DNA from: a virus
Taxonomy: Duplodnaviria; Caudoviricetes
Length of the DNA: 64,000 nt
Virus record (IMG/VR): IMGVR_UViG_3300033498_000048
Coordinates: 241,783-305,782 of that record
Reading direction: 5' to 3' (one strand)
The position numbers and the translations under genes are program-made. The first letter of the stretch is position 1; every line of letters starts with the position of its first letter. Shown piece by piece: positions 1-45,613 of the stretch. Below the pieces are notes generated by a model. That model worked only from the letters and a program-made list of their open reading frames with translations. It was not told the DNA's origin and did not search any database.

Positions 1-392
1 CTAATCCTCTGAATCACATAATTAAAAGTTTCTTGCCTATTCAAATTTAATATCTCATAAAATATTGTTATGTCATATGCGTTTCCATCTGGTAATAAAA
101 CAACCGTAACATCCATTACCTTAATTCTAGGTTCAACTGCACCAATTAACCATTCAATTCTTGATTTTAATGTCGATGCAATTAATACAGATGGATTCTC
201 AAATAACAATTCTTTGATGTAATTCTTATATTTGCTATTGAATGGAACATCCCATATTTCCCATAAAAATATCGTGCGTAAGCTCCGTCTAATTGCTTCT
301 TCATTTATTTTCGTTGTTATGTCTCCAGTTAATGGGTGTATCGTCAATGATAAATCTACATCACGATATATTATTAAATCTGTGTTTTTCAT
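1..392 (-). CDS. gp25: Baseplate wedge subunit gp25 (3' end runs off window)
   Basis: Not in ORF track; translated by hand from ATG 392: MKNTDLIIYRDVDLSLTIHPLTGDITTKINEEAIRRSLRTIF...ELLFENPS...EPRIKVMDV, the typical gp25 pattern; CATAAATA upstream at 424-431. Confidence 0.8.
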   Translation of the reverse strand, partial: MKNTDLIIYRDVDLSLTIHPLTGDITTKINEEAIRRSLRTIFLWEIWDVPFNSKYKNYIKELLFENPSVLIASTLKSRIEWLIGAVEPRIKVMDVTVVLLPDGNAYDITIFYEILNLNRQETFNYVIQRI

Positions 393-2946: not shown

Positions 2947-4479
2947 TCATTTGATTCTTTCTATCAAATTGATATATTCGGTTGTTTTGTTACCAACTAC
3001 TAATCCCTTTGTTCTATTGTATAACAACGGCATTACTGGTTCTAAACATTCAATAAGGAATAAAAATAATCTAAAACAATCCGAACATACTTCATGGCTA
3101 TTATCACTCAAATTCCAAGGTTTGTTGTTATCTATGTAACAATTGATAATGGTAGCATTACCTAATATTATTTTTATTGCCTCAGAGTATTTTAATTCTG
3201 TGTATTTATCGAATATGATTTGTCTATCATTAATTATATGTTCATAAAACACAGTATCAGATATTTCTGATAATTGACTACCGAACTTATTATTTAATAA
3301 CGCAATTGTTCGACTACCAATATTAATTAACTTTCCAATTAATTCATTGTTTATTTTAACAACAAAATCATCATAAGTAAAGTCTATATCATTAATAGTA
3401 TCATCCAATTTATAAGCAAAATAAAAACGTAATAATTCTGGGTCATACTTATCACCGAATTTCTTCCCTGTAATAAAAGAGCCTTTTGATTTACTCATTT
3501 TATTTTTATTAACGGTTAAAAATCCATGCGTTGCTAATTTTGTTGGTAATCTATAATTATTACCTTTTAGTATAGCTACCCAAAATAATGCGTGAAAGTA
3601 AATAATATCTTTACCTATAAATTGGATCAACTCAGTCGACTCTTCTCTCCAATCATTTTTATAATCCAGTCCGATGCCATCAAGATATTCCTTATGGCTT
3701 GAAATATATGCTATAGGAGCGTCAAACCACACATAAAAACATTTATCCAAATCTGGAATATCAAATCCAAAATATGGTTTATCCCTAGTCAAGTCCCAAT
3801 CAAGTAATGGCTCATCAAACCATTCTAATAATTTATCTTTTAATTGATTACTAATCGCTTTACTATCAATAAACTCCAATAAGGTATCTCTGAACGATTC
3901 AATGTTTAAGAAACAATGACTACTTGATTTGTTGATAATACTATGAGTGCTTTCTTTGACTACAATCGGATTAATCAAATCAATAGCAGAATAAACACTT
4001 TGGCAGTTGTCGCAACCATCACCCCATTGTGAATGACTCCCACATTTTGGGCATATCCCCTTGACTTCTCTATCAGATAAAAACTTCTTATCATACTCAT
4101 CAAATAATTGTTTTACTTCTTTTTCTATGATATATCCGTTTGCTTTTAACGTATTGAAAAAGTCAATAGTTAATTTTTCATTTTCTTTAGAATTTGTACT
4201 AGAGAAAATATCAAAATTTACACCAAATTTTTCTAAATCAAATAAATGTTCATTTCTAATCTTATCAATATAATCAACTTCTGATAAGTTTTCGTTTTGA
4301 GAGCTGATAGTAATTGCTGTTCCATGTGAATCGGACGCACATATAAAATCAACTTCATATCCATCTAATCGTTTAGCTCTAACAAAAATATCCGATTGGA
4401 TATATTCCAGTAAATGACCCAAATGAATATCACCATTTGCATAAGGCAATGCGCTGGTTACAACTATTTTATTTTTCAT
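2947..4479 (-). CDS. metG: Methionyl-tRNA synthetase (class I; lacks C-terminal tRNA-binding appendix)
   Basis: VTSALPYANGDIHLGH (HIGH), zinc knuckle CPKC...CDNC, YVWFDAPIAY, FIGKDIIYFH, KMSKSKG, DNNKPW; probable start MKNKIVV at 4479 (track extends to 4497). Confidence 0.95.
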   Translation of the reverse strand: MKNKIVVTSALPYANGDIHLGHLLEYIQSDIFVRAKRLDGYEVDFICASDSHGTAITISSQNENLSEVDYIDKIRNEHLFDLEKFGVNFDIFSSTNSKENEKLTIDFFNTLKANGYIIEKEVKQLFDEYDKKFLSDREVKGICPKCGSHSQWGDGCDNCQSVYSAIDLINPIVVKESTHSIINKSSSHCFLNIESFRDTLLEFIDSKAISNQLKDKLLEWFDEPLLDWDLTRDKPYFGFDIPDLDKCFYVWFDAPIAYISSHKEYLDGIGLDYKNDWREESTELIQFIGKDIIYFHALFWVAILKGNNYRLPTKLATHGFLTVNKNKMSKSKGSFITGKKFGDKYDPELLRFYFAYKLDDTINDIDFTYDDFVVKINNELIGKLINIGSRTIALLNNKFGSQLSEISDTVFYEHIINDRQIIFDKYTELKYSEAIKIILGNATIINCYIDNNKPWNLSDNSHEVCSDCFRLFLFLIECLEPVMPLLYNRTKGLVVGNKTTEYINLIERIK

Positions 4480-4547
4480 ATCTCTTTGTCCAAACATTAA
4501 CTCGTTATTTATTGTTAATAATAGCTTTAAAAATTTGCATTATTAAG

Positions 4548-36831: not shown

Positions 36832-37533
36832 TTATTTGTTATAAAATGGGTTATCGTCAATTTCACTTAAAGGGTTTTCTTTAAGCATACTTTTAACCAT
36901 GTCTAATATCTTTGTATCCAAATGGTTTTTTAACCAAGGGTTAGATGTCATATTTATAGACGAGTCAACATTCATATCCATCAACTTTTGTATTTTTTTA
37001 TTGGCTTCTTGTCCCAATTCGTTAATGATAACATCGTCTAACTTTTTAACACCTTGATAAATTGCATTAGAAATATCATTAAACGAATCAGCTCGTGATA
37101 ACCAAGACATTCTTCTTGAAAATTCACGTTCAGCTTTCCCAGTTTCAGTGTTAATAGACCATTGTGGAACTGAACCATTATTTATTCTACGCAATATTTC
37201 AACTCGGTCTTTTTGAACTTTAACAGCGTTTTCCCATATTGTTGGATAATCACGTCTTAATTCAGATATATCATCTTGTTGGACTAATGCAATAATAGCT
37301 TGCATTTTATCGAAAATTATTTTATCAATTTCAACCTTTTCAGGTGATTCTTGATATATGTCTTGTTTTATTTTATTGATTTTTTTATGTAAACTGGGAT
37401 TACCTCCAGCTAAGATGTTTCCATCATGGTCAACATATATTGACCCACCTCTGCCCATTCGTTTCCAAGTTCCACCAGATAATGCCTTTTGGTCAGCCTC
37501 TGACAAAACCATAAAATCTTTAATGCTTATCAT
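36832..37533 (-). CDS. Putative internal virion protein
   Basis: MISIKDFMVLSEA leader; GTW...GSIYVDHDGNILAG motif. Confidence 0.6.
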   Translation of the reverse strand: MISIKDFMVLSEADQKALSGGTWKRMGRGGSIYVDHDGNILAGGNPSLHKKINKIKQDIYQESPEKVEIDKIIFDKMQAIIALVQQDDISELRRDYPTIWENAVKVQKDRVEILRRINNGSVPQWSINTETGKAEREFSRRMSWLSRADSFNDISNAIYQGVKKLDDVIINELGQEANKKIQKLMDMNVDSSINMTSNPWLKNHLDTKILDMVKSMLKENPLSEIDDNPFYNK

Positions 37534-37668
37534 ATTAATTTATCCTATATTATGGTTGGTTTTGTTGTATTTATTATATTTGAATACTAGGCTATAGAGT
37601 CATTTATTACTAATGGTCCAGTTTCTTTTCGTATCATCATGGACATTAGATTCAACTTAGATACGACT

Positions 37669-37742
37669 CATCTTATGTCCAGTGTGTTATATTAAGTTTA
37701 GTATAAATACAAGAAATCAAATAACACACTGGACATAAGATG
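37669..37742 (+). promoter_or_regulatory. 22-bp perfect inverted repeat sequestering RBS/ATG with late promoter in the loop
   Basis: catcttatgtccagtgtgttat (37669-37690) / ataacacactggacataagatg (37721-37742); TATAAATA at 37702-37709. Confidence 0.8.
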
Positions 37743-38543
37743 GCAAAATTAATAAACGACAAGTATTACACTCCATTAGAATTGGCTCAATATTGTATAG
37801 ATAAAACGCATCAAATTATAGGGAATAAAAATATCACTGAATATATTGAACCATCAGCTGGAAATGGGTCATTTAGTTTATTATTACCTGATTGTATTGC
37901 ATTTGATATTGAACCTGAGCATCCATCAATTATCAAACAAGACTTTTTAATGATTGATATACCACATAAATCTGGACGATGTGTTATTGGGAATCCTCCA
38001 TTTGGAAAAAACAATTTATTATATAGGAGGTTTTGTGATAAAAGCTTTAATATTGCTGATTATGTTGCTTACATTTTACCTATCAGTCAATATAATAACA
38101 GAAATCTAATTTACAAATTTGATTTAATTTATAGTGAAAAGCTTAATCAGGTGTTGTTTAGTTCGGCTAAACAAGTTCCAGTTTGTTTTAACATTTATAA
38201 AAGACCATTAAGTGGAATTTACAATAAACGTCCTAAATTATACCACAAATATATTAAGTTTATATATAAAACTAGGCACTCGAACGAAATCATCAATGAT
38301 TTTGATGTGATAATATGTGCATGGGGGAGTAATGTTGGTAAACCAATAACAGATTTAAATGCTCCTAGATGGACATCAAGTATGTACATTAAATTTATTG
38401 ATGGACTAGATACTTCAATTAAAAGCAAACTAATAGAATCAATATCAAATGTTGATTGGAAACTCAAATATAGTATGCCTAGAAATGGGTCAATATCATA
38501 TTGGCATATTTATAATTATCTAAATGAAATTGTTAAGGAGTAA
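37740..38543 (+). CDS. N6-adenine DNA methyltransferase
   Basis: DKYYTP, IEPSAGNGSF (motif I), VIGNPPFG (motif IV). Confidence 0.85.
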   Translation: MAKLINDKYYTPLELAQYCIDKTHQIIGNKNITEYIEPSAGNGSFSLLLPDCIAFDIEPEHPSIIKQDFLMIDIPHKSGRCVIGNPPFGKNNLLYRRFCDKSFNIADYVAYILPISQYNNRNLIYKFDLIYSEKLNQVLFSSAKQVPVCFNIYKRPLSGIYNKRPKLYHKYIKFIYKTRHSNEIINDFDVIICAWGSNVGKPITDLNAPRWTSSMYIKFIDGLDTSIKSKLIESISNVDWKLKYSMPRNGSISYWHIYNYLNEIVKE

Positions 38544-38549
38544 CATTAT

Positions 38550-39038
38550 ATGGCTAAAAGAAAAACAGCACAAGATAAAGAAGCTGAATACCAAAACAAC
38601 CCTTGGATGTTTAATAATGAACCGTTCAATGATTGCAAACAATATGCTGGATTTGTTTATGAAATAATAGACTTAGAAACCAGTAAACGCTATATTGGAA
38701 AAAAGTTTTTTTGGAGTATGAAACGGGTTCCAGGTAGAAAAAACCGAATCACTGTAGAATCTACATGGAGAGAATATTATAGTTCCAGTGTTGAGATTAA
38801 GGCACTGGTTAAAGAATTTGGAAAAGCTAGATTTAAGCGAACCATATTATCAATACACGAATTAGAAAGGGATGTTAATTATGAAGAAACAAGGCAATTA
38901 TATACTAAAAAGGTATTATCAGAAGTGAATGGTGATGGTGAATTGGTTTATTATAATGGAAACATTGAAGGTAAACGATTTTCTAATCTTTGTATTGGAA
39001 TAGAAAATCGTAGTTTATTTGCAATGGAAGCAATTTAA
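38550..39038 (+). CDS. GIY-YIG family nuclease
   Basis: GFVYEIID...RYIGKK...W..YYSSS...RTIL...E...YYNGNI. Confidence 0.8.
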   Translation: MAKRKTAQDKEAEYQNNPWMFNNEPFNDCKQYAGFVYEIIDLETSKRYIGKKFFWSMKRVPGRKNRITVESTWREYYSSSVEIKALVKEFGKARFKRTILSIHELERDVNYEETRQLYTKKVLSEVNGDGELVYYNGNIEGKRFSNLCIGIENRSLFAMEAI

Positions 39039-39052
39039 TAAAGTTTTTATTA

Positions 39053-39289
39053 TTAGTCCACAATAAAAGATATGTTATCATAGCCACTAAAATGGTGTAA
39101 CTTTGGAAACACCGAAATGGTAAACCAACAACCAAACTCAAAGTAGTCGTTCATCATTTTGTCTTTAGAACACCCAAATTTATTCTTTACATTAACACCA
39201 GTTGATAAATCCAAACTCGTAGAGGTAAATTCGCACCCATTACTAGAAGTGTGTTGGATAACAATTATTGATTTTATAGATGTGGACAT
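39053..39289 (-). CDS. Hypothetical early protein
   Basis: AAGGA RBS, consensus promoter upstream. Confidence 0.55.
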   Translation of the reverse strand: MSTSIKSIIVIQHTSSNGCEFTSTSLDLSTGVNVKNKFGCSKDKMMNDYFEFGCWFTISVFPKLHHFSGYDNISFIVD

Positions 39290-39321
39290 AATGATTCCTT
39301 TAAGTTCTCAATGATGGTTAT

Positions 39322-39350
39322 ACTATAATGTGTTGGAGTTATAATGTCAA
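39322..39350 (-). promoter_or_regulatory. sigma70-type early promoter
   Basis: TTGACA-N17-TATAGT; -35 box abuts repeat arm at 39351. Confidence 0.75.
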
Positions 39351-39589
39351 TCAATATGTTAGCATTTGCAACGGTTAAGTAACTAACACATTCATTGATT
39401 GTGTTGTCATAAATACTTGCTGTAATAGAATCAATGAGTTAGCACTTGGAGCTATTACATAATTAATAACAATGTCCAAGTGCTAACTCATTGATAGTTA
39501 TACTATTCACATCAATTATGAAAAATCAATGGGTTAGCACTTGGAACTATCATATAATTACTAACACGCTGCAAGTGCTAACTTATTGA
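39351..39589. repeat. Palindromic repeat array (locus 4)
   Basis: Half-site 39351; units 39431-39494, 39526-39589. Confidence 0.95.
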
Positions 39590-39593
39590 TAGG

Positions 39594-40277
39594 TCAACCA
39601 ACACCAATAAGGTTTTGAACTGGGTCAATGATTACTAATTCCTTTGTGCTTGGACGTATCATAAAATTATCACTATGTAAATCACTCATAAAGTTTTTAA
39701 ACAAAGGCTCGATTAATCGCAAAGCTTTTATTAAATTATCATCTGTAATTCTGGATTTAAGTTTCAAACGTCTAGTTGGGTTTGCAAATTGTTGTCTAAT
39801 ATCAAGATACAAGTCATTTAAGTTTCTGTAGCTATTAAATGGGTCAAAAAAACCCAATGATTTAAACATATTCCATACAAATTTAGCATCTTCATGGAAT
39901 AACGGCATTAAACGTTCTACTACCATGACCAGCATATATTTTTCTTGTGTTGGTTGTATCAATGTTCTATATTTTAAAAAGTCAATATCATCTTCTGTTA
40001 ATTCTGAATTGTCATACATCTTATAGGTATAAACTTTTGGAAAATATGGATTATTTTCGTGATTAACACACAATCTTAAAAATTGAACAGAAGCATCATT
40101 CTCACCTGTTACATTAACAACCTTTATAATCTTGTTAGCATCTTTAGTGTGAGCATATACCAAGGCTTGAACTCCAGACCCTAATAGCTTTTTATCTTTC
40201 ATTATACCATTGAATTTTGTATCAGATTTAGGGAGTTGTAATTTAACTTCCCTAATATAGTTTTGATAGGACAACAT
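39594..40277 (-). CDS. Ser/Thr-type protein kinase, putative internal virion protein
   Basis: LLGSGVQALVY (Gly loop), IIKV, PYFPKVY, VVERL, DLHSDNFM, VIIDP; MLSYQNYIRE leader; CATAAATA at 40375-40382 (minus). Confidence 0.85.
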   Translation of the reverse strand: MLSYQNYIREVKLQLPKSDTKFNGIMKDKKLLGSGVQALVYAHTKDANKIIKVVNVTGENDASVQFLRLCVNHENNPYFPKVYTYKMYDNSELTEDDIDFLKYRTLIQPTQEKYMLVMVVERLMPLFHEDAKFVWNMFKSLGFFDPFNSYRNLNDLYLDIRQQFANPTRRLKLKSRITDDNLIKALRLIEPLFKNFMSDLHSDNFMIRPSTKELVIIDPVQNLIGVG

Positions 40278-40298
40278 TTATTATCTCCATGTAGTAGT

Positions 40299-40651
40299 GA
40301 GTTAGCACTTGCGATAGGTATATAATTAACAACACTGTTTCCAAGTGCTAACTCGTTGATTTAATTATAGTAAATATTTATGGTAATGGAATAAATAGGT
40401 TAGCACTTGGAACGGTTATACAATTAACTAACACCTGCAAGTGCTAACCTATTGATTCTTAGTAATTGACAATGATTGTAACTTAACCAACTATCAATGA
40501 CTTAGCACTTAGACACATTAGGTAATTACTAACAATGCCCAAGTGCTAACGCATTGATTTAATTGAGTTTAGTGAATGTTATTATAATCAACAAGTTAGC
40601 ACTTGGAACGGTTATATAATTAAGACCACACTGCAAGTGCTAACTTATTGA
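40299..40651. repeat. Palindromic repeat array (locus 5), four units
   Basis: Units ending 40359, 40455, 40557, 40651. Confidence 0.95.
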
Positions 40652-40685
40652 TTCTTATACACAACTTTACATAATAAGGAACAAA

Positions 40686-40835
40686 ATGAACATAATATAT
40701 TTAATGTGGGTTATTCACAATGTAATTATTCATCCATTAATGATGCTTATGTCTGTTAGTAAGGCTAACGCATTACACGATGCGAATGCAATTTGGGCTT
40801 TTAAATTGAACACGAAGGTAATCAACGATGCTTAA
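40686..40835 (+). CDS. Small hypothetical protein
   Basis: Not in track; AAGGA RBS; MNIIYLMWVIHNVIIHPLMM..., 49 aa. Confidence 0.5.
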   Translation: MNIIYLMWVIHNVIIHPLMMLMSVSKANALHDANAIWAFKLNTKVINDA

Positions 40836-41453
40836 CTTTAAACAGTTTTGTTTATTAGAATCTACATTAAGTGATAATGAAATTATTGAATTGGGAAACC
40901 GAATAAGAAATACTTTTAAAACAAATGATGTTGAAATGAACTATAATTTATTATCAACATTCATATCTTAATATTGGAAATAGATGTCCAAGTTTTTTCA
41001 TTAAACACTAAGAAAAAAGTTGTGAAAACTAATGTCACATTTGGAAATGTTCAAATTGAAAATCAATCATCGCTGAGTGAAAAACGATTTATTGAATTGG
41101 CTGGAATGGTAACTGATTTATTGAGTAAGTTTCAATGTGAATATAAAAAGGCATTATCTGGAAAATTAAAATTCGTATTCAAACCATCATCCGAACAAAA
41201 GGCAAAAGCAACTTACAAATCAGAGCTTGATGAAATATGGATAAGCAATTCAACAGAAACTTTAAAATTATTTACAAAAGAGTTATATGGATTGCCAAAT
41301 TGGTTTAATTCAAGTTACATAACATCTAAGTATTCGGTTAGTGCTGGATTCGCAGATGAAGAAAATTGGGCTGAATGTTTCGCAATTGCTTTCTTTGGTC
41401 AATCAATTCATCCCAGATTATACAAATTGGCAAAATGTAATAAACAAATTTAA
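40828..41453 (+). pseudogene. Interrupted internal-protein gene with zincin-like remnant
   Basis: MLNFKQFCLLE leader ORF stops at 40971; downstream frame (40974-41453) has ATY...DEIWI and S.Y...EENWAECFA but no HExxH. Confidence 0.5.
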
Positions 41454-41477
41454 AATAGGCTTAGGTTGTTTCTACGT

Positions 41478-41710
41478 CCAAGTGCTAATTCATTGTCAAT
41501 TACTATAATCAACAAGTTAGCACTTACAGCTTGGTCTTAATTATATAACTGTTCCAAGTGCTAAGTCATTGATAGTTAGTAATTGACATAAATAGTAACT
41601 TAACCAACTATCAATGACTTAGCACTTGGTCATTGTTAGTAATTACCTAATGTGTCTAAGTGCTAACACATTGATTTAATTGAGTATAATATTAACAAGT
41701 TAGCACTTAG
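41478..41710. repeat. Palindromic repeat array (locus 6)
   Basis: Half 41478; units 41509-41572, 41611-41674; half 41692. Confidence 0.95.
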
Positions 41711-41762
41711 ACGATGTTAATGATTATGGTGTATTGAACAAATCTCGACATACGCAATAGAA

Positions 41763-42221
41763 TCATTGTTTGCGTTTTTTAATACCTAAATCATATTCAT
41801 TCATAATTTGGAAAGTAAAGTTGTGTAATCTAGCCCATTCGATAGCTGCTTTCCACTTATCCTGATTTACTTGCCATGTAATACATTCATTAATAAAAGT
41901 TGTTTGTCGTTTACGTCCTTTAACTGGAGGTATAGTTTGGTCATGTGGTTTAATTTCAATAATAATGTCTTTTAATGAACCATCTTTCATTTTCACTTTA
42001 ATAAAGAAGTCTGGAAAATACCTTCTTAATTTCTTATCAGCTTGACTATAATATTGTATTGCTTGAATTTCACTACCCCATAATTCAACAGATGGATTCA
42101 TATCACACCAACGCATAAACTTAGTTTCCCATGAACTCCTAGATATAACATTGGTACTGTCTCCAACATATTTCTCTTTGTTTTTAACCACATATTTAAT
42201 TGGTGTCGGAAATCTTTTCAT
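41763..42221 (-). CDS. gp4: Head completion nuclease gp4 (TnsA-like)
   Basis: KNKEKYVGD..N..SRSSWE.KFM.WCD.NP....WGSE...RRYFPDF...IEIKP...NQDKW. Confidence 0.95.
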   Translation of the reverse strand: MKRFPTPIKYVVKNKEKYVGDSTNVISRSSWETKFMRWCDMNPSVELWGSEIQAIQYYSQADKKLRRYFPDFFIKVKMKDGSLKDIIIEIKPHDQTIPPVKGRKRQTTFINECITWQVNQDKWKAAIEWARLHNFTFQIMNEYDLGIKKRKQ

Positions 42222-42265
42222 TTGTATTACATTTATAAATATAATATTTATGTGAGATTAATACT

Positions 42266-43078
42266 ATGTCAATATTAGATGTATTTGATTCTGCTGTTAG
42301 TTCTGTAGCTAATACGGTTTTAAAATCAGTAACATCATTTGAAATTGGAAAATCATTTGGAATTCTTAAATATCCAGCCACAGTTGGGGAAGGTGTTTTT
42401 CCATCATGTATTCAATTTCAAGAATATAAACGGAGCAGTCCAATGGAAAGCTTACCTTGGACTACAATTTATATGTATATGCCTGAAAAGGTATCTAATC
42501 CATCACAAATTTCATGGGAAGGAAATGACACATTAGCAGCAAGTCAAATGAAAAAAATGAATGATGGGCAGTTTACCAGTGCTGCTGGGGCGTGGGCTTC
42601 AAGTTCTATTGCACAAATATTAAATGAAAAGGCTAGTATGTTGGGTACAGATTTGGACACTGTATTAGGTGCTGGTGGAAATATGATACAGAATCCATAT
42701 TTAACTATGATGTTTAAGGGTGTAGACCAACGTGATTTTTCATTTGAATTTAAGTTGTTTCCACATTCTAGGTCTGAGTGTGATAATATTCACAATATCG
42801 TAACTGCATTTAGGGCTGCTGCATATCCAACTGGAAATTCAAATGATGCGTTATTAGGTTATCCTAGCGAATTTGAAATCCAATATCTATTTAACGGACA
42901 ACAAAATAAATGGTTAAATAAGTTCAAACGAAGTGTAATAACTAATGTGGATGTAGATTATACAGGTTCAGGTGGATGGACAGTTACACGAGATGGTTTT
43001 CCATCAGAAATATCACTGACAATAGAATTTAAAGAAATGCAAGTATTAACATCATCTGATATACAAGCAGGATATTAA
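42266..43078 (+). CDS. gp48: Baseplate tail-tube cap gp48
   Basis: NPYLTMMFKGVDQRDFSFEFKLFP...YPSEF...KFKRSVITNVDVDY...LTIEFKE. Confidence 0.9.
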   Translation: MSILDVFDSAVSSVANTVLKSVTSFEIGKSFGILKYPATVGEGVFPSCIQFQEYKRSSPMESLPWTTIYMYMPEKVSNPSQISWEGNDTLAASQMKKMNDGQFTSAAGAWASSSIAQILNEKASMLGTDLDTVLGAGGNMIQNPYLTMMFKGVDQRDFSFEFKLFPHSRSECDNIHNIVTAFRAAAYPTGNSNDALLGYPSEFEIQYLFNGQQNKWLNKFKRSVITNVDVDYTGSGGWTVTRDGFPSEISLTIEFKEMQVLTSSDIQAGY

Positions 43079-43642
43079 ATGGGAATGTTTAATAAGTTTG
43101 AAAGATACAAATACACATTAGATGGAATAATAACAAATGTTACTAATATTGGAATGTCAATATTAATTGATACAGTTAGAAATGTAGACAATCGTTTTGC
43201 ATTTCAAAAGTATGTAATGTCTGAAAATGAGATTCCAGAAAGTATTAGTGAAAAAATGTATGGTGATGCTAAGTATTATTGGACTATATTGGTTGTAAAT
43301 GATATTATCAATCCATTTCACGATTTACCATTAGACTCAGAAACATTGATTGATTACATTAAAGACAAATATGTTGATATATATGAAATCCACCATTATA
43401 TTAATATGTCAGACAATTCATTGGTTGATGATTATAATACTGATATTATTAGAAATAGTAATGACCCGATACCAGATACCATTCGAGCAATTACTAATTA
43501 TGAATATGAATATGAATTAAATGAAAGTAAAAGGAACATTAAAATTGTTAATCCAGTATTTATAAAGGACTTTACCTATTCATATATGAAAGCATTGGAC
43601 ACAAAAATAGAATCTACAATTCAAGAGGAAGACATATTATGA
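43079..43642 (+). CDS. gp53: Baseplate wedge subunit gp53
   Basis: PESISEKMYGDAKYYWTILVVNDIINP...IHHY...TNYEYE..LNE.KR.IK. Confidence 0.9.
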   Translation: MGMFNKFERYKYTLDGIITNVTNIGMSILIDTVRNVDNRFAFQKYVMSENEIPESISEKMYGDAKYYWTILVVNDIINPFHDLPLDSETLIDYIKDKYVDIYEIHHYINMSDNSLVDDYNTDIIRNSNDPIPDTIRAITNYEYEYELNESKRNIKIVNPVFIKDFTYSYMKALDTKIESTIQEEDIL

Positions 43643-44883
43643 TTAGTGACAAGGGTATATTACCAACAGACTTATCACAATTTCAAGTGACGATTAATGG
43701 AAAAGATGTATCACAAGCTATTAGTGGAGTTATAATCTATCAAGATGTTTTATCTCCTATATGGACTTGTGAATTGCAAGTTGCTGATACCAACAATTTA
43801 ATTATGAATGTTCCAATAGCTCCAGGTTCAACTATTGAAATTGAAATAGAATCTAATCAGGGATTCTCATTAAATGGTAGTAAATCTTATGAGTTTGTGG
43901 TATTTGGAATTAATGATAAAAAGTTTATTAATTCAAAGTTCCAAACCTATATGGTTAGTGGTGTTAGTCCAGAAATAATAAAGAATCAATCTATTAGGGT
44001 AAAAAAATCATATCAAGCACAAAGTCCAACCGACATTGCAACAAACATCATTAAGAACTCATTAGGAGCATCATTAGAAGTTGATTCAAGTGAAAATACA
44101 ATAACCACAATTGTATCTAATTTAAGTCCATTTACTGCTGTTAATAAAATGTGTAAAGTTGCCTTGTGTAATGGAGCAGCCGATATGATATTATTCCAAA
44201 TTGATACTGGAAAATTCGCCATGAAAAGTATCGAAAAAATGTATTCAGATACAGATTCTGGGGTTACTTTTATATTAAAACCTGCTGGAATAAAAGACAA
44301 TTCTGGTAATTCCACCACTGATTTGACATTAAGTATCGTTGATTATAATATGGAACATTTCAATGCTATGAGTAGTTTGGGTAGTGGAATGTTTGGTAAT
44401 AAAACCGTTTCATTTGATTTTATGTCTAAAGCATTTACTTCAAAAACGTTTAAATATGGTGATGATAATAAGCAGGACAATTCAAAAAAGTCTTGGGATA
44501 GTGAAACCTTTGAATCTCCAAATTCTAACATCACGTTTGTTCCTAAACACACCAATCTCCATACCGATGATACAGCTTTTACATCAATGGACAAATGGGT
44601 TGGGTCAAGGAAAAGTTCAATAATGAAGCTTGAGCAAGATAGGTTAATATTGCAAGTTCCAGGTGCTGTTAAGGCGTGGGAATTGATAGGTAAATCGTTT
44701 AATGTAGATATGCCATCACAACAATCTATGTCCGATGGAGAAGACTTAGACCTATATTATAAGGGTGCTTACCTATGTATAGCAATAGCTCATTTTTATG
44801 GTAAACATGGAGCATGGGTAAATATTGCTGGTGTTAAAAAGAGATTAGAAAAGTCAATGAATAGTAGCTTTTCTATTAGTTAG
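43639..44883 (+). CDS. Baseplate hub protein (gp27-like)
   Basis: Position after gp53; IYQDVLSP.WTCELQVADTNNLI..VPI; VPG...IG...NV; Y.G.YL..AI.H. Confidence 0.65.
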   Translation: MISDKGILPTDLSQFQVTINGKDVSQAISGVIIYQDVLSPIWTCELQVADTNNLIMNVPIAPGSTIEIEIESNQGFSLNGSKSYEFVVFGINDKKFINSKFQTYMVSGVSPEIIKNQSIRVKKSYQAQSPTDIATNIIKNSLGASLEVDSSENTITTIVSNLSPFTAVNKMCKVALCNGAADMILFQIDTGKFAMKSIEKMYSDTDSGVTFILKPAGIKDNSGNSTTDLTLSIVDYNMEHFNAMSSLGSGMFGNKTVSFDFMSKAFTSKTFKYGDDNKQDNSKKSWDSETFESPNSNITFVPKHTNLHTDDTAFTSMDKWVGSRKSSIMKLEQDRLILQVPGAVKAWELIGKSFNVDMPSQQSMSDGEDLDLYYKGAYLCIAIAHFYGKHGAWVNIAGVKKRLEKSMNSSFSIS

Positions 44884-44905
44884 TAAATTTATTTCCAAGA
44901 CAATT

Positions 44906-45613
44906 ATGCCAACCTTAGATACATCTTTAAAATATGAACGTGATGCTGCTTTACAAATTCATGGAAAAACAGCTTCTATTACACAAAATGGTTTACCAGT
45001 TACCAATGTTACCAATTTTGTTAATCTATTATCAATGGGGTTAGCCAAATCTAATAAATATTTTGTTGAATTTAGATTACCGAAGGGTTTTAGTGAATCA
45101 GCATTTAGTCCAGGTGTCAATGCCGAAAGTGCTTCAACACACATTAGAGCAGTTGAAAACATATTAAATAACAATAACACTATTGGATTAATGTGTCACA
45201 CTCTAAGTATGCCAGCTAGAGCCTTAGAATCATATTCACACAAACAATTAGTTTCACCATATAAAGTTCCAAAGGGAATTGAAGAATATGAACCAGTTAC
45301 GTTTAGCCTATATTCAAGTAGTGACTTAAACACCAGACATTATTTTGACGTGTGGCAGTCAACAGTTGTTAATGTTGGAAGTAATACCTTAAATTATTAT
45401 GATGAGTATGTTTCAGATGTGAACATTTATCTAATTGATGATGAAGGTAAATACTCTCCATATTTTATCACACTGTTCGAGGCATGGCCCATGAATATCG
45501 GTGAACTCCCATTATCTTATTCATCTAACAATACATTCCAAACAGTTACCGTTACATTAGCTTACAAACACTGGAAATCATCATTCGACACCACTAAAAT
45601 GGGTACTTTCTAA
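44906..45613 (+). CDS. gp54: Baseplate tail-tube initiator gp54 (tube-fold)
   Basis: GLAKSNKY, LMC..LSMP, VTFSLY...RHYF..WQ, YYDEYV, L.EAWP..IGE..LSY, VTLAYK.W. Confidence 0.85.
   Translation: MPTLDTSLKYERDAALQIHGKTASITQNGLPVTNVTNFVNLLSMGLAKSNKYFVEFRLPKGFSESAFSPGVNAESASTHIRAVENILNNNNTIGLMCHTLSMPARALESYSHKQLVSPYKVPKGIEEYEPVTFSLYSSSDLNTRHYFDVWQSTVVNVGSNTLNYYDEYVSDVNIYLIDDEGKYSPYFITLFEAWPMNIGELPLSYSSNNTFQTVTVTLAYKHWKSSFDTTKMGTF

What the first reader, a model, noticed from the sequence alone, without database searches (positions are those of the whole stretch)
40478..41685. Repeat cores are flipped between otherwise identical flanks
Seen: the units at 40494 and 41611 share an identical 33-bp left flank (gtaacttaaccaactatcaatgacttagcactt; 40478-40510 and 41595-41627) and 27/28 identical right-flank bases. 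Their 30-bp cores are reverse complements: agacacattaggtaattactaacaatgccc versus ggtcattgttagtaattacctaatgtgtct (29/30). A second pair (40588 and 41509) shares the left flank tataatcaacaagttagcactt and its cores are again inverted (26/30). Inference: cores invert between the arms, by recombination, cruciform resolution or template switching (flip-flop), so the elements are dynamically active rather than passive copies.
Basis: partly seen in the sequence, partly recalled or inferred. Interest (0 to 1): 0.88.

Follow-up and report, generated by a model that had tools for sequence, protein, structure and literature searches.

The report
Flipped loop in phage palindrome repeat
Two copies of a 68-bp mirror-image repeat in an uncultured giant T4-like phage have the same flanks but carry their 30-bp middle in opposite orientations; this is a known copying or recombination accident at hairpin-forming DNA that has recurred in this repeat family, and nothing shows that it is an active switch.

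Summary
The main observation is real. Units at 40502-40549 (U3) and 41619-41666 (U3') share direct flanks (33/33 left, 27/28 right). Their 30-bp cores match 29/30 only as reverse complements. The breakpoints lie inside the perfect 9-bp inverted arms TTAGCACTT/AAGTGCTAA.

The second pair (40596/41517) is weak. Its shared flank is mostly the family's conserved arm. The 41517 core is closer to units elsewhere in the genome, and one of those gives a second good flip.

The units belong to a family of about 92 intergenic 68-bp dyad elements in a 306-kb T4-like jumbo phage. Genome-wide, the polarity of the core is independent of the polarity of the flanks (16 concordant against 13 discordant among the 30 most flank-similar pairs). 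Flips have therefore recurred.

I found no serine or tyrosine recombinase and no Y1 transposase in the genome. A 30-bp segment is also too short for a classical invertase.

The best reading is sporadic inversion of a hairpin loop between inverted repeats, by template switching or arm-to-arm recombination. This is the same kind of event as chloroplast small inversions and template-switch loop inversions. This scan reported the same phenomenon earlier in a Goslar-like jumbo phage (e1-213069).

Active flip-flop could not be tested, because only k=31 contigs of the source run are available.

The parts
40492..40559 (.). Unit U3: outer arm, 9-bp arm 40502-40510 (TTAGCACTT), polar 30-bp core 40511-40540 in '+' orientation, 9-bp arm 40541-40549 (AAGTGCTAA), outer arm
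41609..41676 (.). Unit U3': same arms (41619-41627, 41658-41666); core 41628-41657 is the reverse complement of the U3 core (29/30)
40478..40510 (+). Left flank F of U3, identical (33/33) and in direct orientation to 41595-41627
40541..40568 (+). Right arm plus flank G of U3, 27/28 identical and in direct orientation to 41658-41685
40385..40625 (+). Left array segment (U2, spacer with outward TTGACA, U3, TAATTGAGT spacer, left arm of U4). It is collinear as a direct repeat with 41502-41730.
   Evidence: alignment A1; D2, 150 nt
41502..41730 (+). Right array segment (U4', spacer, U3', shortened spacer, lone left arm at 41700-41708). It is a direct copy of the left array with its two full cores inverted.
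40586..40653 (.). Unit U4, core 40605-40634 in '+' orientation, of the commonest core subtype
41507..41574 (.). Unit U4', core 41526-41555 in '-' orientation. Its best partners are genome units 117960 and 117865 (28/30 as reverse complement). Against 117960 the outer arms match 19/20 in direct register, which makes a second well-supported flip.
40686..41453 (+). Cassette of three small ORFs (49, 47 and 159 aa, no informative family) bracketed by the two arrays
40292..40457 (.). Units U1 (arms 40302-40310 and 40343-40351, 32-nt core) and U2 (arms 40400-40408 and 40439-40447) of the left array

Best explanation
The window is the last 64 kb of a 306-kb, 31% G+C, T4-like jumbo phage assembled from a microbial-mat metagenome. 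The genome carries about 92 intergenic copies of a 68-bp dyad element. Each has an outer arm AATCAA-N4, an inner arm TTAGCACTT, a conserved but polar 30-bp core, and then the mirror-image arms.

The array right of the small-ORF cassette (41502-41730) is a direct copy of the array left of it (40385-40625). Inside that copy, the core of U3' has been inverted between its own 9-bp inverted arms.

I read this as a sporadic mutational event of the 'small inversion at a hairpin' type, also called inverted-repeat spacer inversion. On single-stranded DNA at a replication or recombination intermediate the arms pair. Either a double template switch of the polymerase or a reciprocal exchange between the arms then re-copies or re-joins the loop in the opposite sense, leaving the flanks untouched.

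The element's conserved parts are nearly symmetric, and core orientation shows no significant link to gene direction. Flips are therefore probably tolerated and have accumulated, so core polarity is now random with respect to the flanks across the family.

Shown: the flip, its breakpoints within the arms, its recurrence, the hairpin potential, and that searches for known recombinase families found none. Inferred: the molecular route (template switch or recombination) and the neutrality of the flips.
For: Flip and breakpoints. Flanks are direct at 45/50 against inverted at 18/50. The core is 29/30 as reverse complement against 16/30 direct. The N4 bases stay unswapped.

Direct collinearity of the two arrays over about 230 nt.

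Second flip (genome unit 117960 against U4'): outer arms 19/20 direct against 13/20 inverted; core 28/30 as reverse complement.

Genome-wide uncoupling of core and flank polarity:
- Among the 30 most flank-similar pairs with firm core orientation, 16 are concordant and 13 discordant.
- Among pairs with core identity of at least 26/30 and informative flanks, 7 are concordant and 11 discordant.
- The TAATTGAG/T flank module lies 6 times on the 5' side of the core and 9 times on the 3' side. The outward TAATTGACA module lies 12 and 15 times.

Other evidence:
- Cores are polar and conserved, with 34 '+' and 36 '-'.
- Each unit folds as single-stranded DNA into a hairpin with a 7+9 to 11-bp stem and a loop of about 26-30 nt, at -11 to -16 kcal/mol, z -3.5 to -7.7.
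- No Resolvase, Phage_integrase or Y1_Tnp match in the 100%-complete genome.
- Core orientation against transcription in co-directional gaps is 28 against 18, not significant.
- Known precedent: loop inversion by template switching (PMC8794818), and plastid small inversions of 4-50 bp at hairpins (PMC12371153).
Against: No direct observation of the event or of intermediates. No orthologous locus from a relative could be fetched to polarise the change, that is, to say which copy flipped and when.

The variable arm positions show no covariation. Template switching has therefore not been 'perfecting' the outer palindrome, and stem pairing is limited to the conserved blocks.

The 91-nt block F-U3-G is 98% identical, while the sequence to its left is only about 75-79% identical. 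At least one recent gene-conversion or duplication event is therefore superimposed, and the flip could have been part of that event rather than a separate event in place.

Nearby near-identical cores are more often inverted than direct (7 against 4 local pairs). This hints at fold-back conversion between neighbouring units rather than self-inversion.
Confidence: 0.6

Rival explanations
1. Inverted (antiparallel) gene conversion or modular shuffling between different units. All units share the same mutually inverted arms, so a donor unit can align with a recipient in either sense. A short conversion tract ending in the arms then transplants a core in flipped orientation. For U3', the donor would be U3 itself, paired fold-back across the 1.1-kb cassette.
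For: Cores follow a mirror order across the cassette: U3(+) U4(+) ... U4'(-) U3'(-). This is what a fold-back alignment of the two arrays predicts (I2/I3, 15). The U4' core is not a flipped U2 core (21/30), although U4' occupies the position homologous to U2. Several other near-identical inverted core pairs are close neighbours: genome 38308/38593, 126963/127056, 179800/180087, and window 12654/12940. Facing arms of adjacent units also form 26/27 palindromes (I15). T4-type phages are known to recombine at repeated intergenic cassettes (PMC2839356, PMC4122927).
Against: Homology in the inverted sense is only 9 perfect bp (about 19 bp with mismatches), which is short for strand-exchange proteins. 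For U3/U3', flanks and core are equally young (98%), which a single duplication plus a flip in place explains with fewer steps. The outcome cannot be told apart from self-inversion with present data.
Confidence: 0.22
2. Active flip-flop: the cores switch orientation at appreciable frequency during each infection. This could be driven by a dedicated protein or by very frequent cruciform processing, so every locus would be a mixed population.
For: Core polarity is random with respect to flanks and genes, as expected at equilibrium of a fast process. The arms and the 30-bp spacing are extremely conserved, so a protein probably recognises them.
Against: Two assemblies give one orientation per locus and agree base for base over 36974-45453. 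No serine or tyrosine recombinase or Y1 transposase was found. A 30-bp segment between 9-bp sites is far below the size that known invertases can synapse in cis (established knowledge of Hin/Gin/Fim-type systems). Flipped pairs also carry point differences, so the flips are old enough to have diverged.
Confidence: 0.1
3. Assembly artefact: the two loci share 33- and 28-nt flanks, so a de Bruijn assembler placed or oriented a core wrongly.
For: Logan k=31 contigs break inside these units. Because the shared flank (33 nt) exceeds k, they cannot link a locus to a core orientation.
Against: Both the flank-to-core-A and the flank-to-core-B junctions exist in the data, so two orientations behind the same flank are real whichever locus holds which. 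The whole repeated block (91 nt) is shorter than the k=141 of the MEGAHIT contig, which is identical to the window here. Discordant pairs recur all over the genome.
Confidence: 0.03
4. Whole-unit inverted duplication: the 68-bp palindromic unit was copied in reverse, and the flanks only look direct because the arms are palindromic.
For: This explains the second pair (40596/41517) about as well as a core flip does. The reverse complement of the left flank of U4' fits the right flank of U4, and most of the 'shared' flank is the conserved arm.
Against: For U3/U3', the direct identity extends 14 nt beyond the left outer arm and 9 nt beyond the right one. The asymmetric N4 bases are in direct register. 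The inverted flank alignment is at background level (18/50 against a mean of 25).
Confidence: 0.03

Closest known systems
Small inversions at hairpins in plastid non-coding DNA (Kelchner & Wendel 1996; Kim & Lee 2005; Catalano et al. 2009, as reviewed in PMC12371153)
   Same: A segment of 4-50 bp, bounded exactly by short inverted repeats that can form a stem, is found in either orientation with the flanks unchanged. The event is recurrent (homoplasious), occurs in AT-rich intergenic DNA, and needs no dedicated recombinase.
   Different: Here the comparison is between paralogous copies within one phage genome, not between orthologous loci of species. The loop is itself a conserved, polar, presumably protein-bound sequence. 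The hairpins belong to one large repeat family of about 92 copies.
Template-switch mutations and quasipalindrome events in replication, including loop inversion (Loytynoja & Goldman 2017, PMC5453318; Monttinen & Loytynoja 2022, PMC8794818)
   Same: The predicted footprint is the same: a cluster of changes that is exactly the reverse complement of the loop, bounded by the stem arms.
   Different: The loops reported there are mostly 4-8 nt, whereas this one is 30 nt. The companion signature, compensatory 'perfecting' of the stem, is not seen at the variable arm positions here.
PeSL / PmSL cassettes of T4-type phages (Arbiol et al. 2010, PMC2839356; Comeau et al. 2014, PMC4122927)
   Same: Both are repeated intergenic cassettes in a T4-like genome. 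They bracket small accessory ORFs and act as points of recombination and modular shuffling. Here, direct repeats of an array bracket a three-ORF cassette.
   Different: No sigma-70 promoter plus terminator stem-loop could be shown in the unit (one search found no terminator-like sites, and promoter-like sites were not above the shuffled expectation). The element is a 68-bp dyad with a fixed 30-bp spacer. Core inversion has not, to my knowledge, been described for PeSLs.
Site-specific invertible segments (Hin/Gin/Cin, fimS, Bacteroides invertons, shufflons)
   Same: A segment flanked by inverted repeats is found in two orientations. The core may carry a TATAAT-like hexamer.
   Different: Those segments are about 100 bp to several kb long, need a recombinase (usually encoded nearby), and are mixed within one population. 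Here the segment is 30 bp, no recombinase family was found, and the assemblies show a single orientation per locus.
Loop flips in terminator hairpins of a Goslar-like jumbo phage
   Same: Paralogous hairpins in a jumbo phage carry the same loop in opposite orientations. That finding was also read as inversion of an inverted-repeat spacer.
   Different: It concerns a different phage lineage and a different element (a terminator hairpin with a 15-nt loop). I did not re-test that finding.

Membership tests
Hairpin-associated small inversion / inverted-repeat spacer inversion | The inverted segment is bounded on both sides by a pair of inverted repeats, and the breakpoints lie inside them | tested here: met
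   The core is inverted (29/30). The perfect 9-bp arms flank it. The asymmetric N4 bases just outside the arms are not swapped.
Hairpin-associated small inversion / inverted-repeat spacer inversion | The sequence outside the repeats stays in its original orientation | tested here: met
   Flanks are 45/50 direct against 18/50 inverted. The arrays are collinear over about 230 nt.
Hairpin-associated small inversion / inverted-repeat spacer inversion | Small size (a few bp to about 50 bp) and stem-loop potential of the single strand | tested here: met
   The core is 30 bp (at most 48 bp with arms). Single-stranded DNA hairpins form at -11 to -16 kcal/mol, z -3.5 to -7.7.
Hairpin-associated small inversion / inverted-repeat spacer inversion | Recurrent, independent occurrence | tested here: met
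   A second clear case exists (genome 117960 against 41517). Core polarity is independent of flank polarity genome-wide.
Programmed invertible element (inverton / flip-flop switch) | Both orientations coexist at one locus in one population | not testable with these tools
   Only k=31 Logan contigs of the source run are served. The shared flank (33 nt) is longer than k, and contigs drop rare variants.
Programmed invertible element (inverton / flip-flop switch) | A dedicated serine or tyrosine recombinase | tested here: not met
   PF00239 and PF00589 gave no match in the complete 305,782-bp genome, while the controls did match. A host enzyme cannot be excluded.
Programmed invertible element (inverton / flip-flop switch) | A segment long enough for synapsis of the two sites in cis (about 100 bp or more in known systems) | tested here: not met
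   The sites are 30 bp apart. The threshold comes from established knowledge, not from a tool.
PeSL cassette of T4-type phages | A strong sigma-70-type early promoter combined with a terminator stem-loop | tested here: not met
   No terminator-like sites were found. Promoter-like sites number 20 against 17.6 expected. Only some units (N4 = TGAC) give a 10/12 match.
PeSL cassette of T4-type phages | Repeated between small accessory ORFs and marking recombination joints | tested here: met
   All units are intergenic. Direct array copies bracket the cassette 40686-41453.
REP/BIME-type elements mobilised by a RAYT or Y1 transposase | A cognate Y1 (HUH) transposase | tested here: not met
   PF01797 gave no match in the genome.
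Terminal-hairpin flip/flop of parvovirus type | The hairpins lie at the ends of a linear replicon and are inverted by hairpin transfer | tested here: not met
   The units are internal and dispersed over about 30 intergenic sites. The record has direct terminal repeats, i.e. a circular assembly.

The most novel reading that the evidence does not exclude
The 68-bp elements could be sites of frequent, protein-assisted micro-inversion or fold-back conversion during infection. A complex bound to the TTAGCACTT arms and the polar core would extrude or bend the unit. The 30-bp core, which in many units carries a TATAAT-like hexamer, would then be re-oriented at measurable frequency. This would give a phage population with mixed regulatory polarity at dozens of sites and no known recombinase family.
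Probability: 0.08. Interest if true: 0.8.

Novelty: new member of a known kind. Interest (0 to 1): 0.36.

Why it matters
The flip is a clean natural example of inversion of a long (30-bp) hairpin loop in a phage genome. With about 92 paralogous copies, the family offers an internal record of how often such events happen.

The result also constrains the function of the still unexplained repeat. Whatever reads the conserved polar core, its orientation relative to the flanking modules and to neighbouring genes appears not to matter much. That argues against the unit being a simple directional promoter or terminator. It fits a roughly symmetric protein-docking or recombination-joint role.

There is also a practical warning: k-mer assemblies and annotation by similarity can mis-handle these arrays.

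The finding does not by itself reveal a new mechanism.

Tried and rejected
1. Reads. The only holder of the stretch is the probable source run, kept as Logan k=31 contigs, plus two copies of one freshwater data set with short contigs about 97% alike. The 'opposite strands' joints all have full phage depth (21-24x). They are cross-mapping from other arrays of the same genome, not minority flips. The contigs cannot link a locus to an orientation, so nothing can be said about low-level switching.

2. An X2/X3 contig that joins 40472 to 40587 with 15 other letters might mean a relative lacks U3. It could equally come from another array, so I did not use it.

3. Relatives:
- The exact-pattern scan of IMG/VR found nothing.
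- The scan of JGI metagenome contigs gave 28 loci, none with the outer arms or core consensus of this family.
- The protein-based locus search in IMG/VR found nothing.
- No phage record matches by megablast.

4. Covariation. The variable arm positions (-3..0 against 49..52) pair no more often than shuffled controls. I dropped the idea that template switching keeps perfecting the outer stem.

5. Rfam gave only sub-threshold matches to microRNA-precursor families, i.e. to a generic hairpin shape.

6. A large inversion between arms of different units cannot give the observed pattern. It would flip both cores or invert the spacers, and the spacers here are direct (reasoned).

7. Core orientation as a promoter direction. 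There is no significant link with gene direction in co-directional gaps (28 against 18). The apparent excess of cores 'pointing at gene starts' comes from the larger number of divergent than convergent gaps.

Full report
CONTEXT

The window is G000:C1:241783-305782, the last 64 kb of a 305,782-bp virus record with direct terminal repeats, rated 100% complete. G+C is 31%.

The genes are T4-like:
- gp4 head completion protein at 41763-42221 (-)
- gp48-like and gp53-like baseplate proteins at 42266-43642
- a T7 gp0.7-like kinase at 39594-40277 (-)
- a GIY-YIG SegE-like endonuclease at 38550-39038
- a methionyl-tRNA synthetase at 2947-4497

No phage record is close. The best gp4 match is 57%.

THE REPEAT FAMILY

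The 9-mer TTAGCACTT occurs 38 times in the window, against 0.64 expected. Genome-wide there are 92 units of the form TTAGCACTT-N(27-32)-AAGTGCTAA, allowing one mismatch per arm. Of these, 81 have exactly 30 nt between the arms.

Conservation spans 68 bp. The layout is AATCAA, four variable bases (N4), TTAGCACTT, a 30-bp core, and then the mirror image.

The core is conserved but polar, with consensus close to GGAAC-r-GTTATATAATTAATACCAC-nn-TGy. Its mean identity to its own reverse complement is only 12.5/30. It occurs 34 times in one orientation and 36 times in the other, with 11 ambiguous.

All units are intergenic and often stand in arrays with a period of about 95 bp.

The flanks carry two recurrent modules. 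One is an outward-facing TAATTGACA. The other is TAATTGAG/T directly after the outer arm.

Earlier agents of this scan described the family and noted that the arms fit the IHF consensus and resemble CIRCE half-sites. The IHF fit is visible in the profile; the CIRCE resemblance rests on the published CIRCE consensus. I did not pursue the binding protein.

CHECK OF THE OBSERVATION

Pair 1 is exactly as described.
- U3 has arms at 40502-40510 and 40541-40549.
- U3' has arms at 41619-41627 and 41658-41666.
- They share 33/33 bases on the left (40478-40510 = 41595-41627) and 27/28 on the right.
- Their cores match 16/30 directly and 29/30 as reverse complements.

In the inverted sense the flanks are at or below background (18/50, against a background mean of 25.3, sd 4.1). 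In the direct sense they score 45/50, which ties for the highest value seen among 3,240 pairs in either alignment sense. Only 5 pairs in the genome reach 29/30 as reverse complements.

The N4 bases are asymmetric and stay in direct register: TGAC on the left, CGCA or CACA on the right. The non-complementary C/C at positions 0 and 49 is also unchanged. The inverted segment therefore ends inside the perfect 9-bp arms. A whole-unit inversion is excluded for this pair.

Pair 2 (40596/41517) has the stated numbers but is not specific.
- Eighteen of the 22 shared flank bases are the family's conserved arm.
- The inverted flank alignment fits about as well.
- The 41517 core is more similar (28/30) to genome units 117865 and 117960 than to 40596 (26/30).

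Even so, 41517 is flipped relative to 117960. Their outer arms match 19/20 in direct register against 13/20 inverted. The right flank matches 17/30 against 9/30. The cores match 28/30 only as reverse complements.

LOCAL ANATOMY

A direct alignment shows that 41502-41730 is collinear with 40385-40625. The order is unit, spacer with TTGACA, unit, TAATTGAGT, then the left arm of the next unit. On the right side that last unit is truncated to a lone arm at 41700-41708.

The cassette of three small ORFs (40686-41453) is thus bracketed by direct copies of an array. This is the layout described for PeSL-bracketed cassettes in T4-type phages (PMC2839356, PMC4122927).

Identity is uneven: 98% over the 91-nt block flank-U3-flank, and about 75-79% to its left. 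A recent conversion or duplication is therefore superimposed on an older one. Within the direct copy, both full cores are inverted relative to their positional counterparts.

IS FLIPPING GENERAL?

Yes, on an evolutionary scale.
- Among the 30 unit pairs with the most similar two-sided flanks (39-45/50), 29 have firm core orientations. Of these, 16 are concordant and 13 discordant.
- Among pairs with near-identical cores (at least 26/30) and informative flanks, 7 are concordant and 11 discordant.
- The TAATTGAG/T module lies on the 5' side of the core 6 times and on the 3' side 9 times. The outward TAATTGACA module lies 12 and 15 times.

Core polarity is therefore statistically independent of flank polarity. 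These pairs are not independent events, so I cannot give a count. One event cannot explain the pattern, however.

MECHANISM

Each unit folds as single-stranded DNA into a hairpin with a 7-bp outer stem, a 9-11-bp inner stem and a loop of about 26-30 nt, at -11 to -16 kcal/mol.

The genome gave no match to serine recombinases, tyrosine recombinases or Y1 transposases. The Endonuclease VII search was uninformative because the controls did not ring.

A 30-bp segment between 9-bp sites is too short for cis synapsis by known invertases (established knowledge).

The footprint is a reverse-complemented loop bounded by stem arms, with flanks untouched. This is the footprint described for template-switch loop inversions (PMC8794818) and for the 4-50-bp small inversions at hairpins in plastid DNA (PMC12371153). 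I therefore commit to sporadic inverted-repeat-mediated inversion, by template switching or arm-to-arm exchange, as the most likely origin.

A close rival is antiparallel gene conversion between different units, including fold-back pairing of the two arrays across the cassette. Three observations favour it:
- the mirror order of the cores, U3(+) U4(+) ... U4'(-) U3'(-);
- the excess of inverted over direct near-identical cores among close neighbours (7 against 4);
- 26/27-bp palindromes between facing arms of adjacent units (I15).

Present data cannot separate the two routes.

Variable arm positions show no covariation. Selection or templated correction for pairing is therefore limited to the conserved blocks.

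FUNCTIONAL CONSEQUENCE

In gaps between co-directional genes, cores point with transcription 28 times and against it 18 times, which is not significant.

No terminator-like sites were found, and promoter-like sites are no more frequent than in shuffles. Some units with N4 = TGAC give ATGACT-18-TATAAT.

Orientation therefore looks largely neutral, which explains why flips persist.

ACTIVE FLIP-FLOP?

This could not be tested.
- The only run holding the stretch is kept as k=31 contigs. The shared flank (33 nt) is longer than k, and contigs drop rare variants.
- All strand-switch joints have full phage depth, so they are cross-mapping from other arrays.
- A 305,617-bp MEGAHIT k141 contig in ENA is identical to the window over 36974-45453. 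The repeated block (91 nt) is shorter than 141, so a mis-join at these loci is unlikely and the majority orientation per locus is single.

RELATIVES

No relative carrying the element could be fetched. The orthologous-locus test remains open.

VERDICT

The stated second pair is weak, but another flip replaces it. The interpretation 'cores invert between the arms' is supported as an evolutionary, recurrent process. 'Dynamically active' is not supported.

This is a new instance of a known kind of mutation in an uncharacterised repeat family. This scan had already reported the same phenomenon in another jumbo phage (e1-213069).

Noticed in passing
genome positions 38308/38593 and 179800/180087; window 12654/12940: Three arrays each hold two units with near-identical cores (29/30, 29/30 and 26/30) in opposite orientation. 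The units are spaced 285-287 bp, about three array periods. This recurrent convergent arrangement may reflect fold-back conversion between neighbouring units.
   Followed up: partly
window 41554-41580 and 41603-41629: The facing arms of adjacent units U4' and U3' form a 27-nt palindrome (26/27) around the 22-nt spacer. The arrays are therefore chains of overlapping palindromes, and spacers could in principle flip as well as cores.
   Followed up: no
whole genome, compared with L030 (ENA ERZ27248453 k141_602491): A second assembly of what is probably the same sample is 305,617 bp against 305,782 bp. The 165-bp difference was not located and could be a difference in repeat-array copy number or in terminal overlap.
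   Followed up: no
L004, L007, L010, L011, L016, L021 (metagenome contigs, 37-42% G+C): An unrelated recurrent element has TTAGCACTT-N30-AAGTGCTAA half-sites bracketing a TTGACT...TATTAAT promoter-like core, with conserved flanks (tttcttatta ... tatattctta). It looks like an operator-flanked promoter in some low-G+C organisms.
   Followed up: no
window 40090-41866, runs X2/X3 (freshwater metagenome): Short contigs (151 nt, depth 2-7) match the kinase gene, the small-ORF cassette and gp4 with 1-5 differences each. A close relative of this mat phage therefore occurs in a freshwater data set, which is filed twice.
   Followed up: partly
window 38550-39038 and 39594-40277: A GIY-YIG SegE-like homing endonuclease gene and a T7 gp0.7-like protein kinase gene lie in the accessory island next to the arrays. 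The kinase gene is itself bracketed by arrays.
   Followed up: no
window 2947-4497 (-): A full-length methionyl-tRNA synthetase gene (PF09334, E 6e-125) is encoded by the phage.
   Followed up: no
genome 37636 (minus strand): A third copy of the U3 left-flank module (GTAACTTAACCAAC plus outer arm, 32/33) sits beside a unit with a different core. This flank is therefore a reusable spacer module, not something unique to the U3 pair.
   Followed up: partly
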